Source: a virus (lineage: Duplodnaviria > Heunggongvirae > Uroviricota > Caudoviricetes). Taken from it: DNA of 25,916 bases. Of the stretch, positions 4,702 through 11,850 are shown one piece after another. The position numbers and the translations under genes are program-made. The notes beneath the pieces were generated by a model. It had not been told where the DNA came from and searched no databases. It worked only from the letters and a program-made list of their open reading frames with translations. The DNA is taken from positions 1-25,916 of the IMG/VR virus record IMGVR_UViG_2597490230_000001. One strand, 5' to 3'. Each line of letters opens with the position of its first letter. Positions within the stretch are counted from its first letter, which is position 1.

Positions 4702-4720
4702 TTTTTGAGGAGTGTTAAGA

Positions 4721-7072
4721 ATGTCAGATTGCAAGATTACTGGCAACGTTATGCTTGACGACGAGACCCTAAGTACTCTCCAATATCAGGTAGGTACTTA
4801 CTATAACCACGCGATTGGTTATCATGAGGGCGAGTTGGGTGTACGTGCTCGAATGGGTTGGGAATACTATTACGGAAACCTCCCAGAACCCGTCACACGC
4901 GGTTCTTCACGTTGGGTTGACCGAAGTGTATGGGAAAGTGTCAACGGCACGTTACAGGAGCTTGTGAGCGTTTTTACGAGTGGTGAGGATGCAGTTAAGT
5001 TCTCTCCAATGCACTCGAAGGATGCTTCTGCTGCTATGGCTGCCACTAAGATGGTAAATAAAATCCTGTTGCGTGATAATCCAGGATTCAACGTACTTCA
5101 TGACGCCTTTAAGGAATGTCTTGTTGCACGTAACTCCTTCATCAAGCGTTACTGGAAAACTGAGAAGAAATCTTTTACCGAAGAGTTCGAAGATTTAACA
5201 AAAGATGAGTTGGATTTGTATTTATCAGAGATTCAAGGTGATATCATTGAGTTCACCGCTGAGTTGACAGATAAATCTGAAGAAGACGACCACGTTATCG
5301 AAACTCATTCCGAAGAAATGGATGATGAGCAAGATTTCAACAAGATTGAGGATGAAGTTCCAGCTAAACCGAAGAAATCCAAAGAAGATGATGGGTTTGA
5401 AGAAGGTATCGAAGATGAATTCGAAGCTGAAGATAATTCCGAAGAAGAAGACAAAGAAGAAATCAAACCACCAAAAGGTGTGATGGCTACAGAAGAGCCG
5501 AAAGAGAAAGAGAACGATGAAGAAGAACGTTTCTCTGGTCAGGTGACTTATGAAATCACAACTGAAGGCGTTTGTGTTGAGTACGTCCCATTTGAGGAAG
5601 TAATCGTTGAGCCAACCGCACGGTCACTCAAAGATGCTAACTACATTGGTCACAGAGTTCGTAAGAGTAAGGACGAATTGTTACTAATGGGATTTGATGC
5701 TGAAGCAATTGAGAATCTCAACCCTGCTTCTTCTGACATTGAAGCTGGTGTTATTGCCAACTCTCGTGTCAACAACTTAAACCCTTTAAACGTGAGTGAT
5801 GTTCTGTCCGTAGGTGATGAGAAAGCTGATAAGCTGTGGTTACATGAGAACTACATCAAGACTTCTCTCGTTACTGGTCGAATGGAAATCCTTCAAGTCT
5901 TCACGTTGAATGGTCAGATTCTTGAAGTCAACCGAGTAAATGAGTTCCCGTTTGAGACAATGACTCCATTCCCAATCCCTGGTTCTATTTGGGGTGAATC
6001 TGTTTTCGATATTACGAAAGATGTTCAGGATTTGACTACTACATTAGTACGTGGTGTCATTGATAATATCATGAACGCTAACTTCCGTCGTTACGAAGCG
6101 GTTAAAGGTCAATATGACCGTGAGTCTTTACTGAACAACAGACCAGGTGCTGTTATTGAAGTTCTGTCTCAAGGTGCGGTTACTCCTTTCCAACATCACC
6201 AACTTCCTGCTGGCGTTGATTCTCTGCTTGAGTATATCAATAGTAAGAAAGAAGAACGTACTGGTGTTTCAAAGGTTGGCCAAGGCTTAGACCCTAACGT
6301 GTTTAAAAACGACAACTCAACTGCCACTGTTAATATGGTAATGTCTGCTGCACAAAACCGTCTTCGTATGGTTGCACGTAACATTGCTCAACGTGGTATG
6401 ATGAGCCTGATGCTGTCAATCTATAACTTGGTTCGTGAGAATGGCAAAACTCCTATCTTTGTCGAAACTGCTAACGGTACGGTCACTCTTGACCCGCGTA
6501 AGCTGCCTCATCGTTCTGAGATGATTGTTGCTGTTGCTGTAGGTGACGGTGAGCGTAAAGAAAGAGCTGCTGCTCTCCAAGGTTTGATGATGAGTATGAC
6601 TCAGGTTCCGCAGTTACAACAGTTCCTGCAACCTCAGAACGCTTATCACTTGGCTGCTCAACTGTTTGAATCTATGGGCGTGTACGATGTTGAGAATTAC
6701 TTGACTCCTCTCGACCAGATTCCACCACCACAACCAGACCCAATCCAACAACTTACTATCCAGCAATTGCAGGAACAGATTAAGCAGATTGGTGTACAGA
6801 CTCAGAAACTCATTTCCGATGTTAATAACGAAGACCGTAAATCCGAGTTCGAGCAACAAAAAGCTGCTGATGAAATGACATTGAAGATGCAAGAGTCACG
6901 TAGCAATGTTGATATGAATGCTGAGAAGATGGCACTCGAACGTGCAAGACTGGACTTGGAAAGAGACCGTGTTGCTCTTGAGAAAGAGAAGATTGAACTG
7001 AAACGTCAAGAAATGTTGATGGAAGCTCAAATCGAAGCACGTCAAACCCGCCCAGTGTCTATCGGGAGATAA
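4721..7072 (+). CDS. portal protein
   Basis: About 783 aa directly after terL; portal-like segments (NRPGAVIEV, EERTGVSKVGQG) and a C-terminal coiled coil. SD GAGGAG favours ATG 4721 over GTG 4712. Confidence 0.9.
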   Translation: MSDCKITGNVMLDDETLSTLQYQVGTYYNHAIGYHEGELGVRARMGWEYYYGNLPEPVTRGSSRWVDRSVWESVNGTLQELVSVFTSGEDAVKFSPMHSKDASAAMAATKMVNKILLRDNPGFNVLHDAFKECLVARNSFIKRYWKTEKKSFTEEFEDLTKDELDLYLSEIQGDIIEFTAELTDKSEEDDHVIETHSEEMDDEQDFNKIEDEVPAKPKKSKEDDGFEEGIEDEFEAEDNSEEEDKEEIKPPKGVMATEEPKEKENDEEERFSGQVTYEITTEGVCVEYVPFEEVIVEPTARSLKDANYIGHRVRKSKDELLLMGFDAEAIENLNPASSDIEAGVIANSRVNNLNPLNVSDVLSVGDEKADKLWLHENYIKTSLVTGRMEILQVFTLNGQILEVNRVNEFPFETMTPFPIPGSIWGESVFDITKDVQDLTTTLVRGVIDNIMNANFRRYEAVKGQYDRESLLNNRPGAVIEVLSQGAVTPFQHHQLPAGVDSLLEYINSKKEERTGVSKVGQGLDPNVFKNDNSTATVNMVMSAAQNRLRMVARNIAQRGMMSLMLSIYNLVRENGKTPIFVETANGTVTLDPRKLPHRSEMIVAVAVGDGERKERAAALQGLMMSMTQVPQLQQFLQPQNAYHLAAQLFESMGVYDVENYLTPLDQIPPPQPDPIQQLTIQQLQEQIKQIGVQTQKLISDVNNEDRKSEFEQQKAADEMTLKMQESRSNVDMNAEKMALERARLDLERDRVALEKEKIELKRQEMLMEAQIEARQTRPVSIGR

Positions 7073-8365: not shown

Positions 8366-8391
8366 GTAAGGCTATGTAACAAAACGTACTA
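8366..8391 (+). promoter_or_regulatory. putative late promoter of capsid gene 1
   Basis: GTAAGG-N16-ACTA in the intergenic gap 90 bp before the capsid ATG. Confidence 0.75.
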
Positions 8392-8480
8392 GAATAGTAT
8401 GTTAACAACAAGGAAAAGCCTTGTGAGCTTAACACTAAGCCGCAAGGCAACAAACAATATTTTCAGAGGAGAATTCTCTA

Positions 8481-9419
8481 ATGGCAGATACTACTTTAGT
8501 TTCTTACGACCTTAACGGTAAGAAACTGTCTTTTGCAAACTGGATTTCAAATCTTTCTCCAGATGAAACACCGTTTGTTTCCATGACTGGTAAAGAAGCA
8601 ATCAATCAGACCCTGTTCCAATGGCAGACTGATACGCTGGAAACTGCGAACGCGAACAACGCTGTAGTTGAAGGTTCTGCTGCTGAAGCTCCAGTTCGTA
8701 GCTCTACCACTGTACTGTCCAACGTTACTCAGATTCTGCGTAAAGTTGTTCGTGTTTCTGACACTGCTAACGCTCTGGCGAACTATGGCCGTGGTCAAGA
8801 ACTCCAGTACCAGATGGAAAAAGCTGGTAAAGAAATCAAACGTGACCTCGAAGTTGCGCTTCTGCGTAACGGTGCGAAGGTTGATGGTTCCGGTACTGTA
8901 GCACGTAAAACCGCTGGCTTTAAAGCTCTGGTTGCTGCTAAAGATGCTGCTGACCCAGATACCGGTGCAGTTGTTCACAAAGAAACTGCTACCGCAGCTA
9001 CCATTCTGGAAGCTGAGCTGTTTGACCTGACGTACAACCTGTACCTGTCCGGTTCTAACGCTAACATCATCATGTTCCACCCGAAACACGCTGCTTTCTT
9101 CGCGTCTCTGATGGAAACTCCGGCTGCTGGTGCAAACCGCATGAAGATGTTCGATGGTCAGGATACTAAATTCAATCAGTATGTTTCTACCATCGTCGAC
9201 CCGCTGGGTCAGTTGTTCAAACTGATTCCTAACCGTTGGATGGGCGAGTCTGACATTTACTTCTTCACCCCGTCCGATTGGACCCAGATGGTACTGCGCG
9301 CTCCGCAGCGTACTAAACTGGCGAAAGACGGTTCTTACGAGAAGTGGATGGTTGAGATGGAAGTTGGTCTGCGTCACCGCAACCCGTATGCTTCCGGCAT
9401 CCTGACAATCAAAGCTTAA
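8481..9419 (+). CDS. major capsid protein (copy 1)
   Basis: 312 aa after the scaffold; capsid-like motifs (ETPFVSM, FQWQTDTL, NVTQILRKVVRVSDT); strongly host-optimised codons; SD GAGGAG. Confidence 0.92.
   Translation: MADTTLVSYDLNGKKLSFANWISNLSPDETPFVSMTGKEAINQTLFQWQTDTLETANANNAVVEGSAAEAPVRSSTTVLSNVTQILRKVVRVSDTANALANYGRGQELQYQMEKAGKEIKRDLEVALLRNGAKVDGSGTVARKTAGFKALVAAKDAADPDTGAVVHKETATAATILEAELFDLTYNLYLSGSNANIIMFHPKHAAFFASLMETPAAGANRMKMFDGQDTKFNQYVSTIVDPLGQLFKLIPNRWMGESDIYFFTPSDWTQMVLRAPQRTKLAKDGSYEKWMVEMEVGLRHRNPYASGILTIKA
8541..8587 (+). repeat. 47-bp perfect direct repeat, copy 1 (copy 2 at 9560-9606)
   Basis: TGGATTTCAAATCTTTCTCCAGATGAAACACCGTTTGTTTCCATGAC is identical in both capsid paralogues. 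Confidence 0.95.
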
Positions 9420-9441
9420 TAGCTGTTGATTAACAACCTTA

Positions 9442-9475
9442 AAGGGGAGGAGAAATCCTCTCCTTTTTTTTTTTT
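9442..9475 (+). terminator. rho-independent terminator between the two capsid genes
   Basis: AAGGGGAGGA-GAAA-TCCTCTCCTT stem-loop followed by a 12-T run (9464-9475). Confidence 0.9.
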
Positions 9476-9499
9476 AGAAAAGTTCTAGGAGATAACTAG

Positions 9500-11257
9500 A
9501 TGGCAGATACCACTTTAGTATCCTATGACCTGAATGGTAAGAAACTTTCGTTTGCGAATTGGATTTCAAATCTTTCTCCAGATGAAACACCGTTTGTTTC
9601 CATGACAGGTAAGGAGAGCATTGCTCAAACTCTTTTCCAATGGCAAACCGATGCACTCGAAGCAGCCGTTGATAATAACGCAGTTGTTGAAGGCTCACAA
9701 GCTGAAGCACCTATTAGAAAAACCACCCTGACTCTCAACAACGTTACCCAAATCCTCCGTAAAGTCGTTAAAGTATCTGACACATCTCAGAGTCTTGCAA
9801 ACTACGGTCGTGGTAACGAATTGAAGTATCAGATGGAGAAAGCAGGTAAGGAAATTAAGCGTGACTTGGAAGTTATCTTCCTTTCCGACCAAGATAGAGT
9901 AGATGGTGATGCAACAACCACTCCTCGTAGAACTGCTGCTTTCCAGAAACTCGTTGCAGATTTTGAAGTAGCAGACCCTGATACTGGTGCTATTGTTCAT
10001 AAAGCAATGGCAGGTGAAACTCCTACTGAATCTGAAATCTTTGACATTACTTATAACCTGTATCTGTCTGGCTCCAAAGCAAACATTATCATGTTCCATC
10101 CTAAGTTCGCTTCCTTCTTCAGTTCACTGATGGAAGTTTCTCAGAGTGGTAATCGTGTTAAGCTGTTTGATGGTGAAGACACTCGTTATAACAAGTATGT
10201 GACTGAAGTAGTTGACCCACTGGGTTGCACTTATAAACTGGTTCCAAACCGTTGGATGCCAGAAAAAGCAATCTACTTCCTCAGCGCATCTGACTGGACT
10301 CAAATGGTTCTCCGTGCTCCAGAAAGAACTAAGCTTGCAAAAGATGGTTCTTATGAGAAATGGATGCTGGAAATGGAAGTAGGCCTGAGACACCGTCACC
10401 CTTATGCCTCTGGTATTCTGTTGACTGCAAGTGCTGCTCCTGCTGACCCAGTTGCCTCTATCGCACTGAACAATTCGAACTTCTACGGCGGTTTGAATGC
10501 TCTGCAAGTTGGTGCTGCTGCAACTTCCGATGCCGTTGCTGCTACAGTTTCTACAGCTAACGTAACTATCCTGCCTGCCACTGCAAACCAAGCGTTTACC
10601 GCTGTGAGCTCTGCTCCTGCTGTTGCGACTGTTGCAATCCAAGGTAGTTCTGTTAAGATTACAGCTGTAAGTGCTGGTACTGCAACCTTGACAGTTACCT
10701 CTGTTGGTGACCCAACTAAGACTGCAACTGCTACAATTACTGTTTATGATAGAAGTGTTTCTACTGATTCCTTCTCTAATCAGCCGTTGTATGTAGGTCA
10801 GACTCAGACTATTGGCAAGTCAATTGATGTTTCAACCCCTGCTCCAACTTGGAGTTACGTATCCCTGGATACATCGGTTGCGACTGTTAACAGCTCTGGT
10901 GTGACTACTGCTGTTGGTTCCGGCTTTACCCGTATCCGTGCAATTGCTACTGTAAACGGTATTCGCTTCTTCGACCAATCTGGTCTTGATGTTGAAGCTG
11001 CTGTAGTGGTAACTCCTAATGCTACTGCCCGTTCAGTTGCTGTAGGTTCTACGGTTAACCTGGGTTCTGACTTCACCGCAACTCCGTCTTCTGCTCAGAC
11101 TAAAGGCTTCACCTACACATCTGGCACTCCTGCCAATGCAACGGTTGATGCTTCTGGTGTTGTAACAGGTGTTGCTGCTGGTACTTCAGTAATCACTGCA
11201 ACTTCTAAAGCAGACCCAACTAAGTCCGCTAATAAGACAGTTACTGTAACTGCTTAA
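9500..11257 (+). CDS. major capsid protein paralogue (copy 2) fused to C-terminal Ig-like (Big_2-type) domains
   Basis: 585 aa. The first ~312 aa align to copy 1 (first 39 aa identical). The remainder is Thr/Ala/Val-rich with about three Ig-like repeats (e.g. NATVDASGVVTGVAAGTSVITATS). SD AGGAG. Confidence 0.92.
   Translation: MADTTLVSYDLNGKKLSFANWISNLSPDETPFVSMTGKESIAQTLFQWQTDALEAAVDNNAVVEGSQAEAPIRKTTLTLNNVTQILRKVVKVSDTSQSLANYGRGNELKYQMEKAGKEIKRDLEVIFLSDQDRVDGDATTTPRRTAAFQKLVADFEVADPDTGAIVHKAMAGETPTESEIFDITYNLYLSGSKANIIMFHPKFASFFSSLMEVSQSGNRVKLFDGEDTRYNKYVTEVVDPLGCTYKLVPNRWMPEKAIYFLSASDWTQMVLRAPERTKLAKDGSYEKWMLEMEVGLRHRHPYASGILLTASAAPADPVASIALNNSNFYGGLNALQVGAAATSDAVAATVSTANVTILPATANQAFTAVSSAPAVATVAIQGSSVKITAVSAGTATLTVTSVGDPTKTATATITVYDRSVSTDSFSNQPLYVGQTQTIGKSIDVSTPAPTWSYVSLDTSVATVNSSGVTTAVGSGFTRIRAIATVNGIRFFDQSGLDVEAAVVVTPNATARSVAVGSTVNLGSDFTATPSSAQTKGFTYTSGTPANATVDASGVVTGVAAGTSVITATSKADPTKSANKTVTVTA
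9560..9606 (+). repeat. 47-bp perfect direct repeat, copy 2
   Basis: Identical to 8541-8587. Confidence 0.95.
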
Positions 11258-11264
11258 TCAACCT

Positions 11265-11295
11265 AAGGGGTAGGGGTTATCCCCTCCCCTTTTTT
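11265..11295 (+). terminator. rho-independent terminator after capsid copy 2
   Basis: AAGGGG-T-AGGGG-TTAT-CCCCT-CCCCTT stem with one bulge, then a T run. Confidence 0.85.
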
Positions 11296-11313
11296 CATTT
11301 CTGGAGGTTAAAG

Positions 11314-11598
11314 ATGGCTGTACCATCTCCGCTATACAAGCTTAACTATCCAATTGAAACTGAAGAAGCTAAGAAATTCTGGTCTTCAAATTTGAAATTG
11401 AACAGAATCAAAGCTATCATTGCCTTTTCTCTTGATTTAGAAAATGCTAATGACAACTTGAGAAGATATGGATATTCTAAACAATATAGAAATCGCGCAT
11501 TGAGGGCTTTTGGTCAATACGTGAACAACCCAACTATGGCGGGTGTTCCTTTCAACCAATTGGAAGACAAGTGGTGGGAAGAAATGCCATACGCATAA
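11314..11598 (+). CDS. hypothetical protein
   Basis: 94 aa, strong SD GGAGGT; no recognisable domain. Confidence 0.75.
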   Translation: MAVPSPLYKLNYPIETEEAKKFWSSNLKLNRIKAIIAFSLDLENANDNLRRYGYSKQYRNRALRAFGQYVNNPTMAGVPFNQLEDKWWEEMPYA

Positions 11599-11611
11599 AT
11601 AAGGAGTTAAC

Positions 11612-11803
11612 ATGTGGGCTTTCTTTGTTAAAGCCCTCGTGGCATTTGGGTACAACCTGATGGTAGCGCTAATTGGTGAGGCTATGATTCAATGGGTGTT
11701 CTTCAAAGTGACGCGTTGGCTTACCTCTAAAACCAAAACCAAAGTTGATGATGAGTTTATCGAGAAGTTAGAAGATAACTACAAACGCGGTAAGGGTGGT
11801 TAA
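11612..11803 (+). CDS. small membrane protein, holin-like
   Basis: 63 aa; hydrophobic N-half, charged C-tail with TKTKVDD; SD AAGGAG. Confidence 0.55.
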   Translation: MWAFFVKALVAFGYNLMVALIGEAMIQWVFFKVTRWLTSKTKTKVDDEFIEKLEDNYKRGKGG

Positions 11804-11815
11804 ATTTAGGAACTA
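11790..11815 (+). promoter_or_regulatory. putative late promoter of tail genes
   Basis: GTAAGG-N16-ACTA, followed by the hairpin AGAGAGTA...TACTCTCT and SD AGGAGG. Confidence 0.75.
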
Positions 11816-11850
11816 AGAGAGTATGTAAAAGTACTCTCTCAGGAGGAGAC

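What the first reader, a model, noticed from the sequence alone, without database searches (positions are those of the whole stretch)
8481..11295. Two tandem capsid paralogues: plain copy, strong terminator, then Ig-decorated copy
Phages such as T7 make a minor C-terminally extended capsid protein by ribosomal frameshifting. Here the same outcome appears to be hard-wired by gene duplication. Copy 1 (312 aa) has its own late promoter and ends at TAA TAG. A GNRA hairpin with a 12-T tail follows, and copy 2 (capsid domain plus ~3 Ig-like domains) has an SD but no match to the late-promoter motif, so it should be made only by read-through. The predicted result is a mosaic shell with the Ig display ratio set by termination efficiency. 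The paralogue has diverged in its capsid domain, so it could occupy specific positions (pentons, or caps versus the tube of an elongated head). The T12 run is slippage-prone and could tune the ratio. It may be shared by 7-11-like relatives; I cannot check this.
Basis: partly seen in the sequence, partly recalled or inferred. Interest (0 to 1): 0.75.

Follow-up and report, generated by a model that had tools for sequence, protein, structure and literature searches.

The report
Two capsid genes replace a frameshift
Salmonella phage 7-11 encodes its shell protein twice in a row: a plain, heavily expressed copy and, behind a transcription terminator, a second copy carrying three antibody-like surface domains, so two genes appear to do what related phages do with one gene and a ribosomal frameshift.

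Summary
The genome length (89,916 bp) equals that given for Salmonella phage 7-11. Gene 8 (8481-9419, 312 aa) and gene 9 (9500-11257, 585 aa) are both full SU10-type HK97 capsid proteins, 74% identical. Gene 9 adds three Ig-like domains. Between them lie a GAAA-loop hairpin and a T12 run.

The published late promoter P8 sits before copy 1, and no promoter match precedes copy 2. Only 24 nt separate the T run from its start codon.

The closest single-copy relatives (Kuravirus, Privateervirus) make the same "capsid + Ig" product by -1 frameshifting at GGGAAAG, and their terminator follows the Ig ORF. No two-copy phage keeps a slippery site.

Both copies are under strong purifying selection. Copy 1 has far stronger codon adaptation in all nine two-copy phages checked. 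The pair is old and is shared by Moazamivirus, Crifsvirus and Libingvirus.

Still untested: read-through level, presence of copy 2 in virions, and any position-specific role. I found no conserved copy-2 signature. The terminator also gates genes 10-11, and 12-15 if P12 is silent in vivo, much as I recall for T7's T-phi.

This scan reached the same reading earlier on a 7-11 relative, and it also found 8-gene capsid arrays. Both two-gene annotations are already public. Verdict: a new variant of a known kind, moderately interesting.

The parts
8366..8391 (+). Late promoter P8 (GTAAGG-N16-ACTA), read by host RNA polymerase with phage sigma gp47
   Evidence: Pattern scan. The consensus and the primer-extension and in vitro proof are in PMC8948821. 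GTAA and ACTA are conserved at the same place upstream of copy 1 in Crifsvirus, Libingvirus and Privateervirus.
8418..8448 (+). Stable hairpin in the 5' leader of the copy 1 mRNA (role unknown; mRNA stabiliser or processing site are guesses)
   Evidence: Fold of 8398-8480: -23.1 kcal/mol, z -4.46, 0 of 200 shuffles as good. The 3' arm GCCGCAAGGC is conserved in Moazamivirus and Crifsvirus.
8466..8471 (+). Shine-Dalgarno GAGGAG of copy 1, inside the block GGAGAATTCTCTA-ATG, which is identical in all Grimontviridae rows except Csa009 (one base differs) and the more distant SJSY21
8481..9419 (+). Gene 8, capsid copy 1: plain SU10-type HK97 major capsid protein, 312 aa, 34.3 kDa
   Evidence: Pfam PF17236 1.4e-83. 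Frequency of optimal codons 0.83, rank 2 of 100 ORFs. dN/dS 0.04-0.07 against its closest orthologues, up to 0.23 against A24.
8541..8587 (+). 47-nt stretch of copy 1 identical to copy 2 (9560-9606): a recent copy 2 to copy 1 gene-conversion tract specific to 7-11 (minimum 8549-8582; changes T28 to D)
   Evidence: Exact run. The alignment shows that copy 1 of SE131, SeKF_80, pSal-SNUABM-01 and PKM.Hi.22.6 has a different sequence there, while copy 2 of 7-11, SE131 and SeKF_80 has the 7-11 sequence; the copy 2 genes of pSal-SNUABM-01 and PKM.Hi.22.6 differ at several positions. Metagenome contigs X1 and X9 show ten clustered differences at 8549-8582.
9441..9475 (+). Terminator T1: 11-bp stem, GAAA loop, T12 (9464-9475)
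   Evidence: dG -16.1. A hairpin followed by a T-rich stretch is conserved between the two copies in Moazamivirus, PKM.Hi.22.6, Crifsvirus and BUCT695, with different stem sequences. T-run length is 9-12 among relatives.
9487..9491 (+). Shine-Dalgarno AGGAG of copy 2
9500..10420 (+). Gene 9, capsid domain of copy 2 (aa 1-307)
   Evidence: Pfam PF17236 3.4e-77. Foldseek to SU10 capsid 7z45/46/48, E 5e-29. It keeps every invariant residue of a 40-sequence family alignment. dN = 0 against SE131 and SeKF_80 at dS 0.07. Fop 0.64.
10451..11254 (+). Gene 9, three Ig-like domains (about aa 318-416, 420-499, 503-585)
   Evidence: AlphaFold2 pLDDT is mostly above 90. Pfam Big_2 is significant for domain 3 (8.6e-9) and sub-threshold for domains 1 and 2. 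Foldseek also returns tandem Ig-like arrays. The history is mosaic: dS 0.65 against SeKF_80, versus 0.07 in the capsid domain.
11266..11295 (+). Terminator T2 after gene 9 (stem with one bulge, TTAT loop, T6)
   Evidence: dG -18.1. It is in the same relative position as the terminator after the Ig ORF of the frameshifting relatives Csa009 and YF01.

Best explanation
Gene 8 (copy 1) is the bulk shell protein of the prolate head. Gene 9 (copy 2) is a minor capsid subunit. Its capsid domain fits into the same HK97 lattice, and its C-terminus displays three Ig-like domains on the outside.

Late transcripts start at P8 (and upstream at P1). Most stop at terminator T1 right after copy 1. The fraction that reads through carries copy 2, and, past a second terminator T2, genes 10-11. 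It also carries genes 12-15 if P12 is as silent in vivo as reported. The plain-to-decorated ratio would therefore be set mainly at transcription, with weaker codon adaptation of copy 2 adding to it.

This is the two-gene equivalent of the long capsid isoform that Kuravirus (phiEco32, SU10, YF01) and Privateervirus make from one gene by -1 frameshifting at GGGAAAG.

Shown: gene structure, promoter position (published), terminator anatomy and its conservation, absence of a slippery site, purifying selection on both copies, codon asymmetry, and phylogeny.

Inferred: termination efficiency, co-assembly, surface display, and the adhesive role of the Ig domains.
For: Promoter:
- P8 at 8366-8391 fits the experimentally defined late consensus, and gene 8 is one of the mapped late promoters (PMC8948821).
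- No strict or relaxed match, and no sigma-70-like site on the + strand, lies between P8 and the copy 2 start.
- No motif in 9300-9499 recurs elsewhere beyond chance 11-13-mers.

Terminators:
- T1 and T2 are the best-scoring (longest-stem, T-tailed) + strand terminator-like sites in 4-26 kb of the late region, and they flank copy 2.
- The T1 hairpin is conserved in position, with different stem sequences, in three genera.

Comparison with relatives:
- Csa009 has GGGAAAG at nt 948-954 of a 957-nt capsid gene. Its -1 frame encodes Ig-like plus Big_2-like sequence (recognised by eye from the translation), and its only strong terminator follows that ORF.
- YF01 is the same.
- The long isoform was detected by MS in SU10 and Privateer (PMC4281155, PMC7881722).
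- None of the six two-copy copy 1 genes tested has an in-frame slippery heptamer.

Selection:
- Between paralogues dS is about 2 and dN/dS about 0.09.
- The copy 2 capsid domain has dN = 0 against SE131 and SeKF_80, and dN/dS 0.03 against pSal-SNUABM-01.

Expression proxy:
- Fop of copy 1 is 0.83 (rank 2 of 100 ORFs; genome median 0.55). The copy 2 capsid domain scores 0.64.
- Copy 1 exceeds copy 2 in all nine two-copy phages.

Co-assembly:
- The first 39 residues are identical. The spine helix (aa 104-128 of the model) is largely conserved up to about aa 120, and aa 281-300 are 95% identical.
- Divergence is concentrated in aa 121-180 and 201-260.

Age:
- All copy 2 genes form one clade (96/96).
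- An independent duplication in Moazamivirus is rejected at p-AU 0.031.
Against: - There are no transcript-level or virion-protein data for any two-copy phage in the searchable literature.
- The public runs that hold this DNA are contigs and cannot rank expression.
- In SU10, the best-studied relative, cryo-EM showed no density for minor capsid proteins. Per PMC9965538, SDS-PAGE showed no band for the long isoform, contradicting the earlier MS result (PMC9509320, PMC9965538). Incorporation of Ig-bearing subunits in this lineage is therefore itself disputed.
- The authors of the 7-11 transcription study suspect that the phage antiterminates (PMC8948821), which could make T1 much leakier than its sequence suggests.
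- T1 gates more than copy 2. P12 showed no activity in vivo, so genes 10-15 may also depend on read-through. The terminator may therefore be a general capsid-gene attenuator, comparable to what I recall of T7 T-phi, and not a dedicated ratio setter.
- The codon adaptation of copy 2 (0.64) is still above that of low-copy structural genes (0.50-0.57), so it may not be rare.
Confidence: 0.62

Rival explanations
1. Copy 2 is a position-specific shell protein, not a random substituent. It would form the pentons, or the cap capsomers, of the prolate head, as gp24 does in T4 and MCPp in mycobacteriophage Jabs. The low read-through level would match the small number of such positions.
For: - In SU10, 55 of 715 capsid subunits (7.7%) sit in pentamers (PMC9509320), a fraction a leaky terminator could deliver.
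- Paralogue divergence falls in what I take to be the axial domain (aa 121-180, 201-260). The annular loop of that domain is what differs between SU10 pentamers and hexamers.
- The cultured Aeromonas phage APT65 has three plain capsid paralogues plus one extended paralogue, 50-56% identical. Display alone cannot explain that.
- Adjacent hexon and penton capsid genes exist in Jabs.
Against: - Only 2 alignment columns separate all copy 1 from all copy 2 sequences. Single-copy outgroups show both states at both columns.
- SU10 builds pentamers and hexamers from one protein (PMC9509320).
- In the frameshifting relatives the long isoform has the same capsid domain as the short one, so the ancestral Ig-bearing form cannot have been position-specific by sequence.
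- Known vertex paralogues (Jabs MCPp, 257 against 594 aa) are the shorter, undecorated partner.
Confidence: 0.15
2. Copy 2 is expressed but is not a stable part of the mature virion. It could act during assembly, be shed, or serve another role such as a decoy or adhesin released at lysis.
For: SU10 cryo-EM found no density for minor capsid proteins. Per PMC9965538, SDS-PAGE found no band for the Ig-bearing isoform (PMC9509320, PMC9965538).
Against: - Copy 2 keeps every family-invariant capsid residue.
- Its capsid domain is under extreme purifying selection (dN = 0 at dS 0.07), as expected for a subunit that must fit a lattice.
- MS detected the long isoform in SU10 and Privateer particles (PMC4281155, PMC7881722).
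Confidence: 0.13
3. Copy 2 has its own unrecognised promoter, or T1 is largely bypassed by antitermination. The two proteins would then be made at comparable levels and the shell would be a true two-protein lattice.
For: - The 7-11 transcription paper suspects antitermination.
- An earlier scan note reports a promoter-like box class missing from the published map (e1-1853843).
- Copy 2 has a good SD and moderately high codon adaptation.
Against: - Only 24 nt lie between the T run and the ATG. Any promoter upstream of that must still pass T1.
- There is no late-consensus or sigma-70-like match and no recurring motif in 9300-9499.
- A hairpin with a T-rich tail is conserved between the copies in three genera.
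- A codon-adaptation gap of about 0.1-0.3 between the copies is conserved in nine phages.
Confidence: 0.07

Closest known systems
Frameshift-made long capsid isoform of Kuravirus (phiEco32, SU10 gp9+gp10, YF01) and Privateervirus (Privateer, vB_CsaP_009)
   Same: Same capsid family (PF17236) and same portal, small gene, scaffold, capsid order. Same end product: an HK97 capsid domain with C-terminal Ig-like or Big_2 domains. A late promoter lies before the cassette and a terminator follows the Ig-coding part (PMC4281155, PMC7881722, PMC9965538).
   Different: No slippery heptamer in 7-11. The long form has its own complete capsid domain, only 74% identical to the short form, with its own start codon and SD. 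An extra terminator lies between the two. The ratio would be set by transcription termination instead of by frameshift efficiency, and the two capsid domains can evolve apart.
T7/T3 gene 10A/10B and terminator T-phi (from general knowledge; frameshift rate of about 10% cited in PMC9965538)
   Same: A major and a minor C-terminally extended capsid protein. A strong but leaky intrinsic terminator lies directly after the capsid gene, and downstream structural genes depend on read-through.
   Different: In T7 both isoforms come from one gene and one mRNA, and the terminator follows both. In 7-11 the terminator lies between the two forms. T7 uses its own RNA polymerase, whereas 7-11 uses host core enzyme with a phage sigma factor (PMC8948821).
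Vertex or penton capsid paralogues: T4 gp23/gp24 (general knowledge) and mycobacteriophage Jabs MCPh/MCPp (bioRxiv 10.64898/2026.07.24.740622)
   Same: Two paralogous HK97 capsid genes in one phage, adjacent in Jabs, with very unequal copy number in the shell.
   Different: In those phages the rare paralogue is undecorated and structurally specialised for fivefold positions. In 7-11 the presumed rare paralogue carries the decoration, and no conserved paralogue-specific signature was found.
Tandem arrays of SU10-type capsid genes in uncultured phages, and the four-gene set of Aeromonas phage APT65
   Same: Same family and same synteny. Most members carry different C-terminal extensions. Hairpins lie between some members (earlier scan notes e1-5355765 and e1-5355766).
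   Different: Seven, eight or four copies instead of two. The plain copies are last (L017, L018) or first (APT65). The first members are tightly packed without hairpins.
Engineered 'mosaic' display phage with a duplicated, recoded capsid gene (TP-84; PMC12205831)
   Same: A second capsid gene carrying a display module is placed beside the native one. Synonymous recoding keeps the copies from recombining.
   Different: That system is man-made. In 7-11 the synonymous divergence is natural (dS saturated), and the copies nevertheless still exchange short tracts (the 47-nt conversion).

Membership tests
SU10-type HK97 major capsid protein (Pfam PF17236) | Full-length profile match above the curated cut-off | tested here: met
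   Copy 1: 281 bits, profile 6-289 of 292. Copy 2: 260 bits, profile 6-288 of 292. Cut-off 24.1 bits.
SU10-type HK97 major capsid protein (Pfam PF17236) | HK97 fold resembling the solved SU10 capsid protein | tested here: met
   The copy 2 model matches 7z48/7z46/7z45 chains at E 5e-29, target TM 0.6-0.67. By sequence it matches 7z45 at E 2e-104. Copy 1 was not modelled; it is 74% identical to copy 2.
SU10-type HK97 major capsid protein (Pfam PF17236) | Position in the head module (portal, small gene, scaffold, capsid) | tested here: met
   SU10_portal at 4712-7072, then a 75-aa gene, a 350-aa acidic scaffold-like gene, then copies 1 and 2.
SU10-type HK97 major capsid protein (Pfam PF17236) | Presence in the virion shell | not testable with these tools
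   No proteomic or structural data for 7-11 or any two-copy relative were found.
Programmed -1 frameshift capsid isoform (T7 10B, SU10 gp9+10, Privateer minor capsid) | In-frame slippery heptamer (X XXY YYZ) near the 3' end of the capsid gene | tested here: not met
   None in copy 1 of 7-11 or of the five other two-copy phages tested. GGGAAAG is present in Csa009 and YF01.
Programmed -1 frameshift capsid isoform (T7 10B, SU10 gp9+10, Privateer minor capsid) | Extension encoded in the -1 frame directly after the capsid gene, with no start of its own | tested here: not met
   The Ig domains are in frame with a second complete capsid domain that has its own ATG and SD.
Programmed -1 frameshift capsid isoform (T7 10B, SU10 gp9+10, Privateer minor capsid) | Product is a capsid domain with a C-terminal Ig-like extension beside a plain form | tested here: met
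   It works like this family but is not a member.
Vertex-specialised capsid paralogue (T4 gp24, Jabs MCPp) | Conserved sequence or structure differences that distinguish the paralogue across relatives | tested here: not met
   Only 2 discriminating columns (G131/Q, P264/A), and both states occur in single-copy outgroups.
Vertex-specialised capsid paralogue (T4 gp24, Jabs MCPp) | Location at fivefold vertices | not testable with these tools
   Needs cryo-EM or labelling.
Intrinsic (rho-independent) terminator acting as an attenuator after a capsid gene (T7 T-phi type) | GC-rich hairpin followed directly by a U tract | tested here: met
   T1: 11 bp, GAAA loop, dG -16.1, U12. T2: dG -18.1, U6.
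Intrinsic (rho-independent) terminator acting as an attenuator after a capsid gene (T7 T-phi type) | Downstream genes lack their own promoter and so need read-through | tested here: met
   No late or sigma-70-like promoter match before genes 9-11. P12 is reported as inactive in vivo (PMC8948821).
Intrinsic (rho-independent) terminator acting as an attenuator after a capsid gene (T7 T-phi type) | Measured partial termination | not testable with these tools
   No RNA data from infected cells. The runs found are contigs.
Bacterial Ig-like domain group 2 (Pfam PF02368) | Profile match above the cut-off | tested here: met
   Whole protein 40.3 bits (cut-off 22.8). Domain 3 alone scores 35.7 bits. 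Domains 1 and 2 score 20.4 and 16.3 bits, below the cut-off, but are predicted as beta-sandwiches with pLDDT mostly above 90.

The most novel reading that the evidence does not exclude
In the SU10-type prolate phages, capsid-gene paralogues are not interchangeable display variants. They are position-coded building blocks. Copy 2 of 7-11 would occupy defined capsomers (pentons or caps). The 4-, 7- and 8-gene arrays of relatives would encode distinct capsomer classes of an elongated shell; SU10 has eight capsomer classes, two pentamer and six hexamer types. Gene order, hairpins and terminators would then set the stoichiometry of each class.
Probability: 0.13. Interest if true: 0.85.

Novelty: new variant of a known kind. 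Interest (0 to 1): 0.55.

Why it matters
Ig-like domains on phage heads are widespread, and their role is still argued over (adhesion to host surfaces or to mucus). In most phages they are added by frameshifting, which ties the decorated form to the essential capsid gene.

In 7-11 and its relatives the decorated form is a separate gene behind a separate control element. Three consequences follow:
- The decorated subunit can be deleted, swapped or re-dosed without touching the major capsid protein. That makes a clean test system for what the Ig domains do, and for whether such subunits enter the shell at all, a point disputed for SU10.
- One lineage shows two solutions to the same dosage problem, translational recoding and duplication plus attenuation. 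This is a usable case for how recoding signals are gained or lost.
- Once the decorated copy is a free gene, its capsid domain can diverge and the gene can multiply. This may be how the 4- to 8-gene capsid arrays of related phages arose.

The natural layout is also a template for mosaic phage display.

Tried and rejected
- Motif hunting. My first upstream motif (TAACAAAAC-N12/13-TATGTTAA, two sites) turned out to be parts of the published promoters P8 and P16, not a separate element. The phiEco32-type element (AATGTATA) has no relevant site.
- A second hairpin pairing the T run with the copy 2 SD (9470-9492) looked attractive. It is no better than shuffles (z -0.45), so I dropped it.
- Public sequencing runs. 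Only metagenome contigs and a few metatranscriptome contigs hold this DNA. Laid on the region they give T-run lengths and variants, but no expression levels. One 326-nt contig from an RNA library of a relative bridges 9292-9621 across T1. DNA carry-over cannot be excluded, so I do not count it as evidence.
- Virion proteomics for 7-11, SE131, pSal-SNUABM-01, GAP52, A24, BUCT695, ECO319P1 and APT65: nothing in the searchable library. The 2011 genome paper is not held.
- Independent duplications per genus. This is rejected for Moazamivirus (p-AU 0.031) but not for Crifsvirus (0.096) or BUCT695 (0.26). The first small tree was an unresolved polytomy. Long-branch attraction among the faster copy 2 genes remains possible.
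- Complex prediction (copy 1 with copy 2) was not run.
- Mapping substitutions onto capsomer interfaces was not possible, because the SU10 paper text gives no residue ranges for its loops and I had no coordinates to compute on.

Full report
WHAT IS THERE

The window is the left 25.9 kb of an 89,916-bp genome. That is the length given for Salmonella phage 7-11 (table in PMC10782986), and the region is 97% identical to SE131.

Two same-strand ORFs occupy the finding. Gene 8 is at 8481-9419 (312 aa, 34.3 kDa) and gene 9 at 9500-11257 (585 aa, 61.7 kDa). Both match the Pfam SU10 major capsid family over the whole profile, and gene 9 also matches Big_2. The two capsid domains are 74% identical over 309 residues.

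An AlphaFold2 model of gene 9, built on 40 homologues, gives an HK97-like domain followed by three confidently predicted beta-sandwiches at about aa 318-416, 420-499 and 503-585. By Foldseek the first part matches the solved SU10 capsid protein (E 5e-29), and the remaining matches are tandem Ig/cadherin/S-layer arrays.

Gene 8 ends TAA TAG. An 11-bp hairpin with a GAAA loop (9441-9466, -16.1 kcal/mol) and a run of 12 T (9464-9475) follow. AGGAG and the gene 9 ATG come 24 nt after the T run. A second terminator (11266-11295, -18.1 kcal/mol) follows gene 9.

PROMOTERS

The late promoters of 7-11 were mapped by primer extension and by in vitro transcription with the phage sigma factor gp47. The consensus is GTAAtg-(16)-aCTA, found before genes 1, 8, 12, 16, 22, 28, 48 and 69 (PMC8948821).

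My scan places exact matches on the + strand at 1369, 8366, 11790, 16667, 21918 and 29211, plus one inside the portal gene. The site at 8366-8391 is therefore P8, 90 nt upstream of gene 8. GTAA and ACTA are conserved at the same place in Crifsvirus, Libingvirus and Privateervirus.

Neither the strict nor a relaxed pattern occurs between 8366 and 11790. No sigma-70-like site lies on the + strand between 8458 and 10212. Nothing in 9300-9499 recurs elsewhere beyond chance 11-13-mers. Only 24 nt separate the T run from the ATG, so any RNA polymerase that reaches gene 9 must have passed T1.

T1 and T2 are the best-scoring + strand terminator-like sites (longest stems with a T tail) in 4-26 kb of the late region. 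Genes 10 and 11 also lack a promoter. P12 was reported active in vitro but not in vivo, so genes 12-15 may depend on the same read-through. T1 is thus best seen as a general attenuator placed after the bulk capsid gene, comparable to what I recall of T7's T-phi, with gene 9 lying in the attenuated zone.

THE COMPARATIVE ARGUMENT

The nearest single-copy relatives make a capsid-plus-Ig protein by recoding:
- In Kuravirus (phiEco32, SU10, YF01) and Privateervirus the capsid gene ends with GGGAAAG. A -1 shift fuses it to a downstream Ig-like ORF.
- Both isoforms were found by mass spectrometry in SU10 and Privateer (PMC4281155, PMC7881722, PMC9965538).
- I verified the site in vB_CsaP_009 (nt 948-954 of 957; by eye the -1 frame reads as Ig-like plus Big_2-like sequence) and in YF01.
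- In both phages the only strong terminator follows the Ig-coding part.

By contrast, none of the six two-copy phages tested has an in-frame slippery heptamer in copy 1. All those examined have a hairpin with a T-rich tail between the copies, with different stem sequences in Moazamivirus, Crifsvirus and Libingvirus.

So the cassette "late promoter, capsid, Ig, terminator" is shared. The 7-11 group has a second capsid domain fused in frame to the Ig part, and an extra terminator in front of it.

AGE AND SELECTION

Synonymous divergence between the copies is saturated (dS about 2) and dN/dS is about 0.09 in every phage tested.

With outgroups, all copy 2 genes form one clade (96/96). An independent duplication in Moazamivirus is rejected at p-AU 0.031, though not for Crifsvirus or BUCT695. 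A single old duplication is favoured, but long-branch attraction among the faster copy 2 genes is not excluded. Privateervirus, which frameshifts, nests beside Moazamivirus copy 1. Either it lost copy 2, or the history is more complex than one switch.

Copy 2 is not decaying. Its capsid domain is identical in protein between 7-11, SE131 and SeKF_80 at dS 0.07, and it retains every residue invariant in the 40-sequence family alignment.

The Ig part has a different history. Against SeKF_80 its dS is 0.65 (1.28 in the last domain), with dN/dS about 0.2. This points to exchange of the display module between lineages. Its length also varies among relatives, from about 100 aa (BUCT695) to about 470 aa (PKM.Hi.22.6, five Big_2 stretches).

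DOSAGE PROXIES

Using the classical E. coli optimal-codon list (my own knowledge of Ikemura and Sharp-Li), copy 1 scores 0.83. That is second of 100 ORFs, against a genome median of 0.55. The copy 2 capsid domain scores 0.64, and low-copy structural genes score 0.50-0.57. Copy 1 exceeds copy 2 in all nine two-copy phages.

This fits a major/minor split, with copy 2 at intermediate rather than trace abundance.

WHERE WOULD COPY 2 SIT?

Identity between the copies is highest in the first 39 residues (100%), in the segment containing the first part of the long spine helix (aa 101-120, 90%), and in aa 281-300 (95%). I infer that these are elements that tie capsomers together. Divergence is concentrated in aa 121-180 and 201-260, which I take to be the axial domain. 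That is compatible with co-assembly.

Only two columns distinguish all copy 1 from all copy 2 sequences, and outgroups show both states there. I therefore found no signature of a conserved structural specialisation. A penton or cap role is not excluded, since 55 of 715 SU10 subunits are pentameric (PMC9509320). Aeromonas phage APT65, with three plain paralogues and one extended paralogue, shows that display is not the only driver of capsid-gene multiplication in this lineage.

CAVEATS

- Nothing here measures RNA or protein.
- SU10 cryo-EM saw no density for minor capsid proteins, and per PMC9965538 SDS-PAGE showed no band for the long isoform (PMC9509320, PMC9965538).
- The 7-11 transcription paper suspects antitermination.
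- T-run length varies from 9 to 12 among isolates and metagenome contigs. I have no evidence that this changes termination, and tracts of nine or more are already long.

WIDER CONTEXT AND NOVELTY

Both genes are annotated as major head proteins in public records (note). [quoted passage not shown] I found no paper that analyses the pair, the terminator, or the link to frameshifting.

This scan reached the same reading earlier on a 7-11 relative (e1-1729689) and had described an eight-gene array (e1-5355765, e1-5355766). I found such arrays independently: seven and eight tandem full-length PF17236 genes after portal and scaffold on 56-kb and 189-kb contigs.

I rate the finding as a real, well-supported new variant of a known kind. 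The known kind is a minor Ig-bearing capsid isoform. What is new is a separate paralogous gene dosed by an attenuator instead of by recoding.

Noticed in passing
window 8541-8587 and 9560-9606: This is a 47-nt exact identity between otherwise saturated paralogues. Comparison shows a recent copy 2 to copy 1 gene-conversion tract specific to 7-11 (minimum 8549-8582), changing T28 to D. Copy 1 of SE131, SeKF_80, pSal-SNUABM-01 and PKM.Hi.22.6, and of two metagenome relatives, keeps the unconverted sequence. The paralogues therefore still recombine.
   Followed up: yes
L017:3434-13570 and L018:4429-14917: These are uncultured relatives with seven (753, 472, 463, 468, 435, 364, 352 aa) and eight (438, 469, 475, 460, 443, 447, 361, 307 aa) tandem, full-length SU10-type capsid genes directly after portal, a 73-aa gene and scaffold. 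Most carry C-terminal extensions with no Pfam family. The first members are packed 2-15 nt apart. The last members are separated by GC-rich hairpins and, in L018, a 139-nt AT-rich spacer before the plain copy.
   Followed up: partly
L019:6049-10243 (Aeromonas phage APT65, OP491958): This cultured phage has four tandem capsid paralogues: three plain (310, 310, 307 aa) and one extended (428 aa), 50-56% identical. Hairpins lie between members 2-3 and 3-4. No paper discussing this was found.
   Followed up: partly
L004:3621-5164, L005:3564-5092, L006:3605-5133 (GAP52, A24, ECO319P1): In Crifsvirus, copy 2 stops inside what looks like its first Ig-like domain (...SDNESIAKGA, TAA). A 146-aa ORF starts 2 nt later in the -1 frame, with an identical junction in three independent isolates. 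The two ORFs together are colinear (65% identity) with an uninterrupted 597-aa copy 2 on a related 75-kb metagenome contig (L015). Candidate explanations are a conserved split, reinitiation or recoding. No canonical slippery site was seen.
   Followed up: partly
window 10421-11254: The Ig-like part of gene 9 is mosaic. Against SeKF_80 its dS is 0.65 (1.28 in the last domain), while the capsid domain of the same gene has dS 0.07 and an identical protein. This suggests exchange of the display module between lineages.
   Followed up: partly
window 8418-8448: A very stable hairpin lies in the leader of the capsid mRNA (fold of 8398-8480: z -4.46). Its 3' arm is conserved in Crifsvirus. Its function is unknown.
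   Followed up: no
window 11266-11850: Genes 10 (94 aa) and 11 (63 aa, hydrophobic N-terminus) lie behind both terminators and before P12, which is reported inactive in vivo. If so, the adaptor and fibre genes 12-15 are also fed by read-through from P8 and P1.
   Followed up: no
window 9464-9475: The T-run length differs among close relatives: 12 in 7-11, 10 in SeKF_80, and 9 in SE131, pSal-SNUABM-01 and PKM.Hi.22.6. Three metagenome contigs have 11, 10 and 9.
   Followed up: partly
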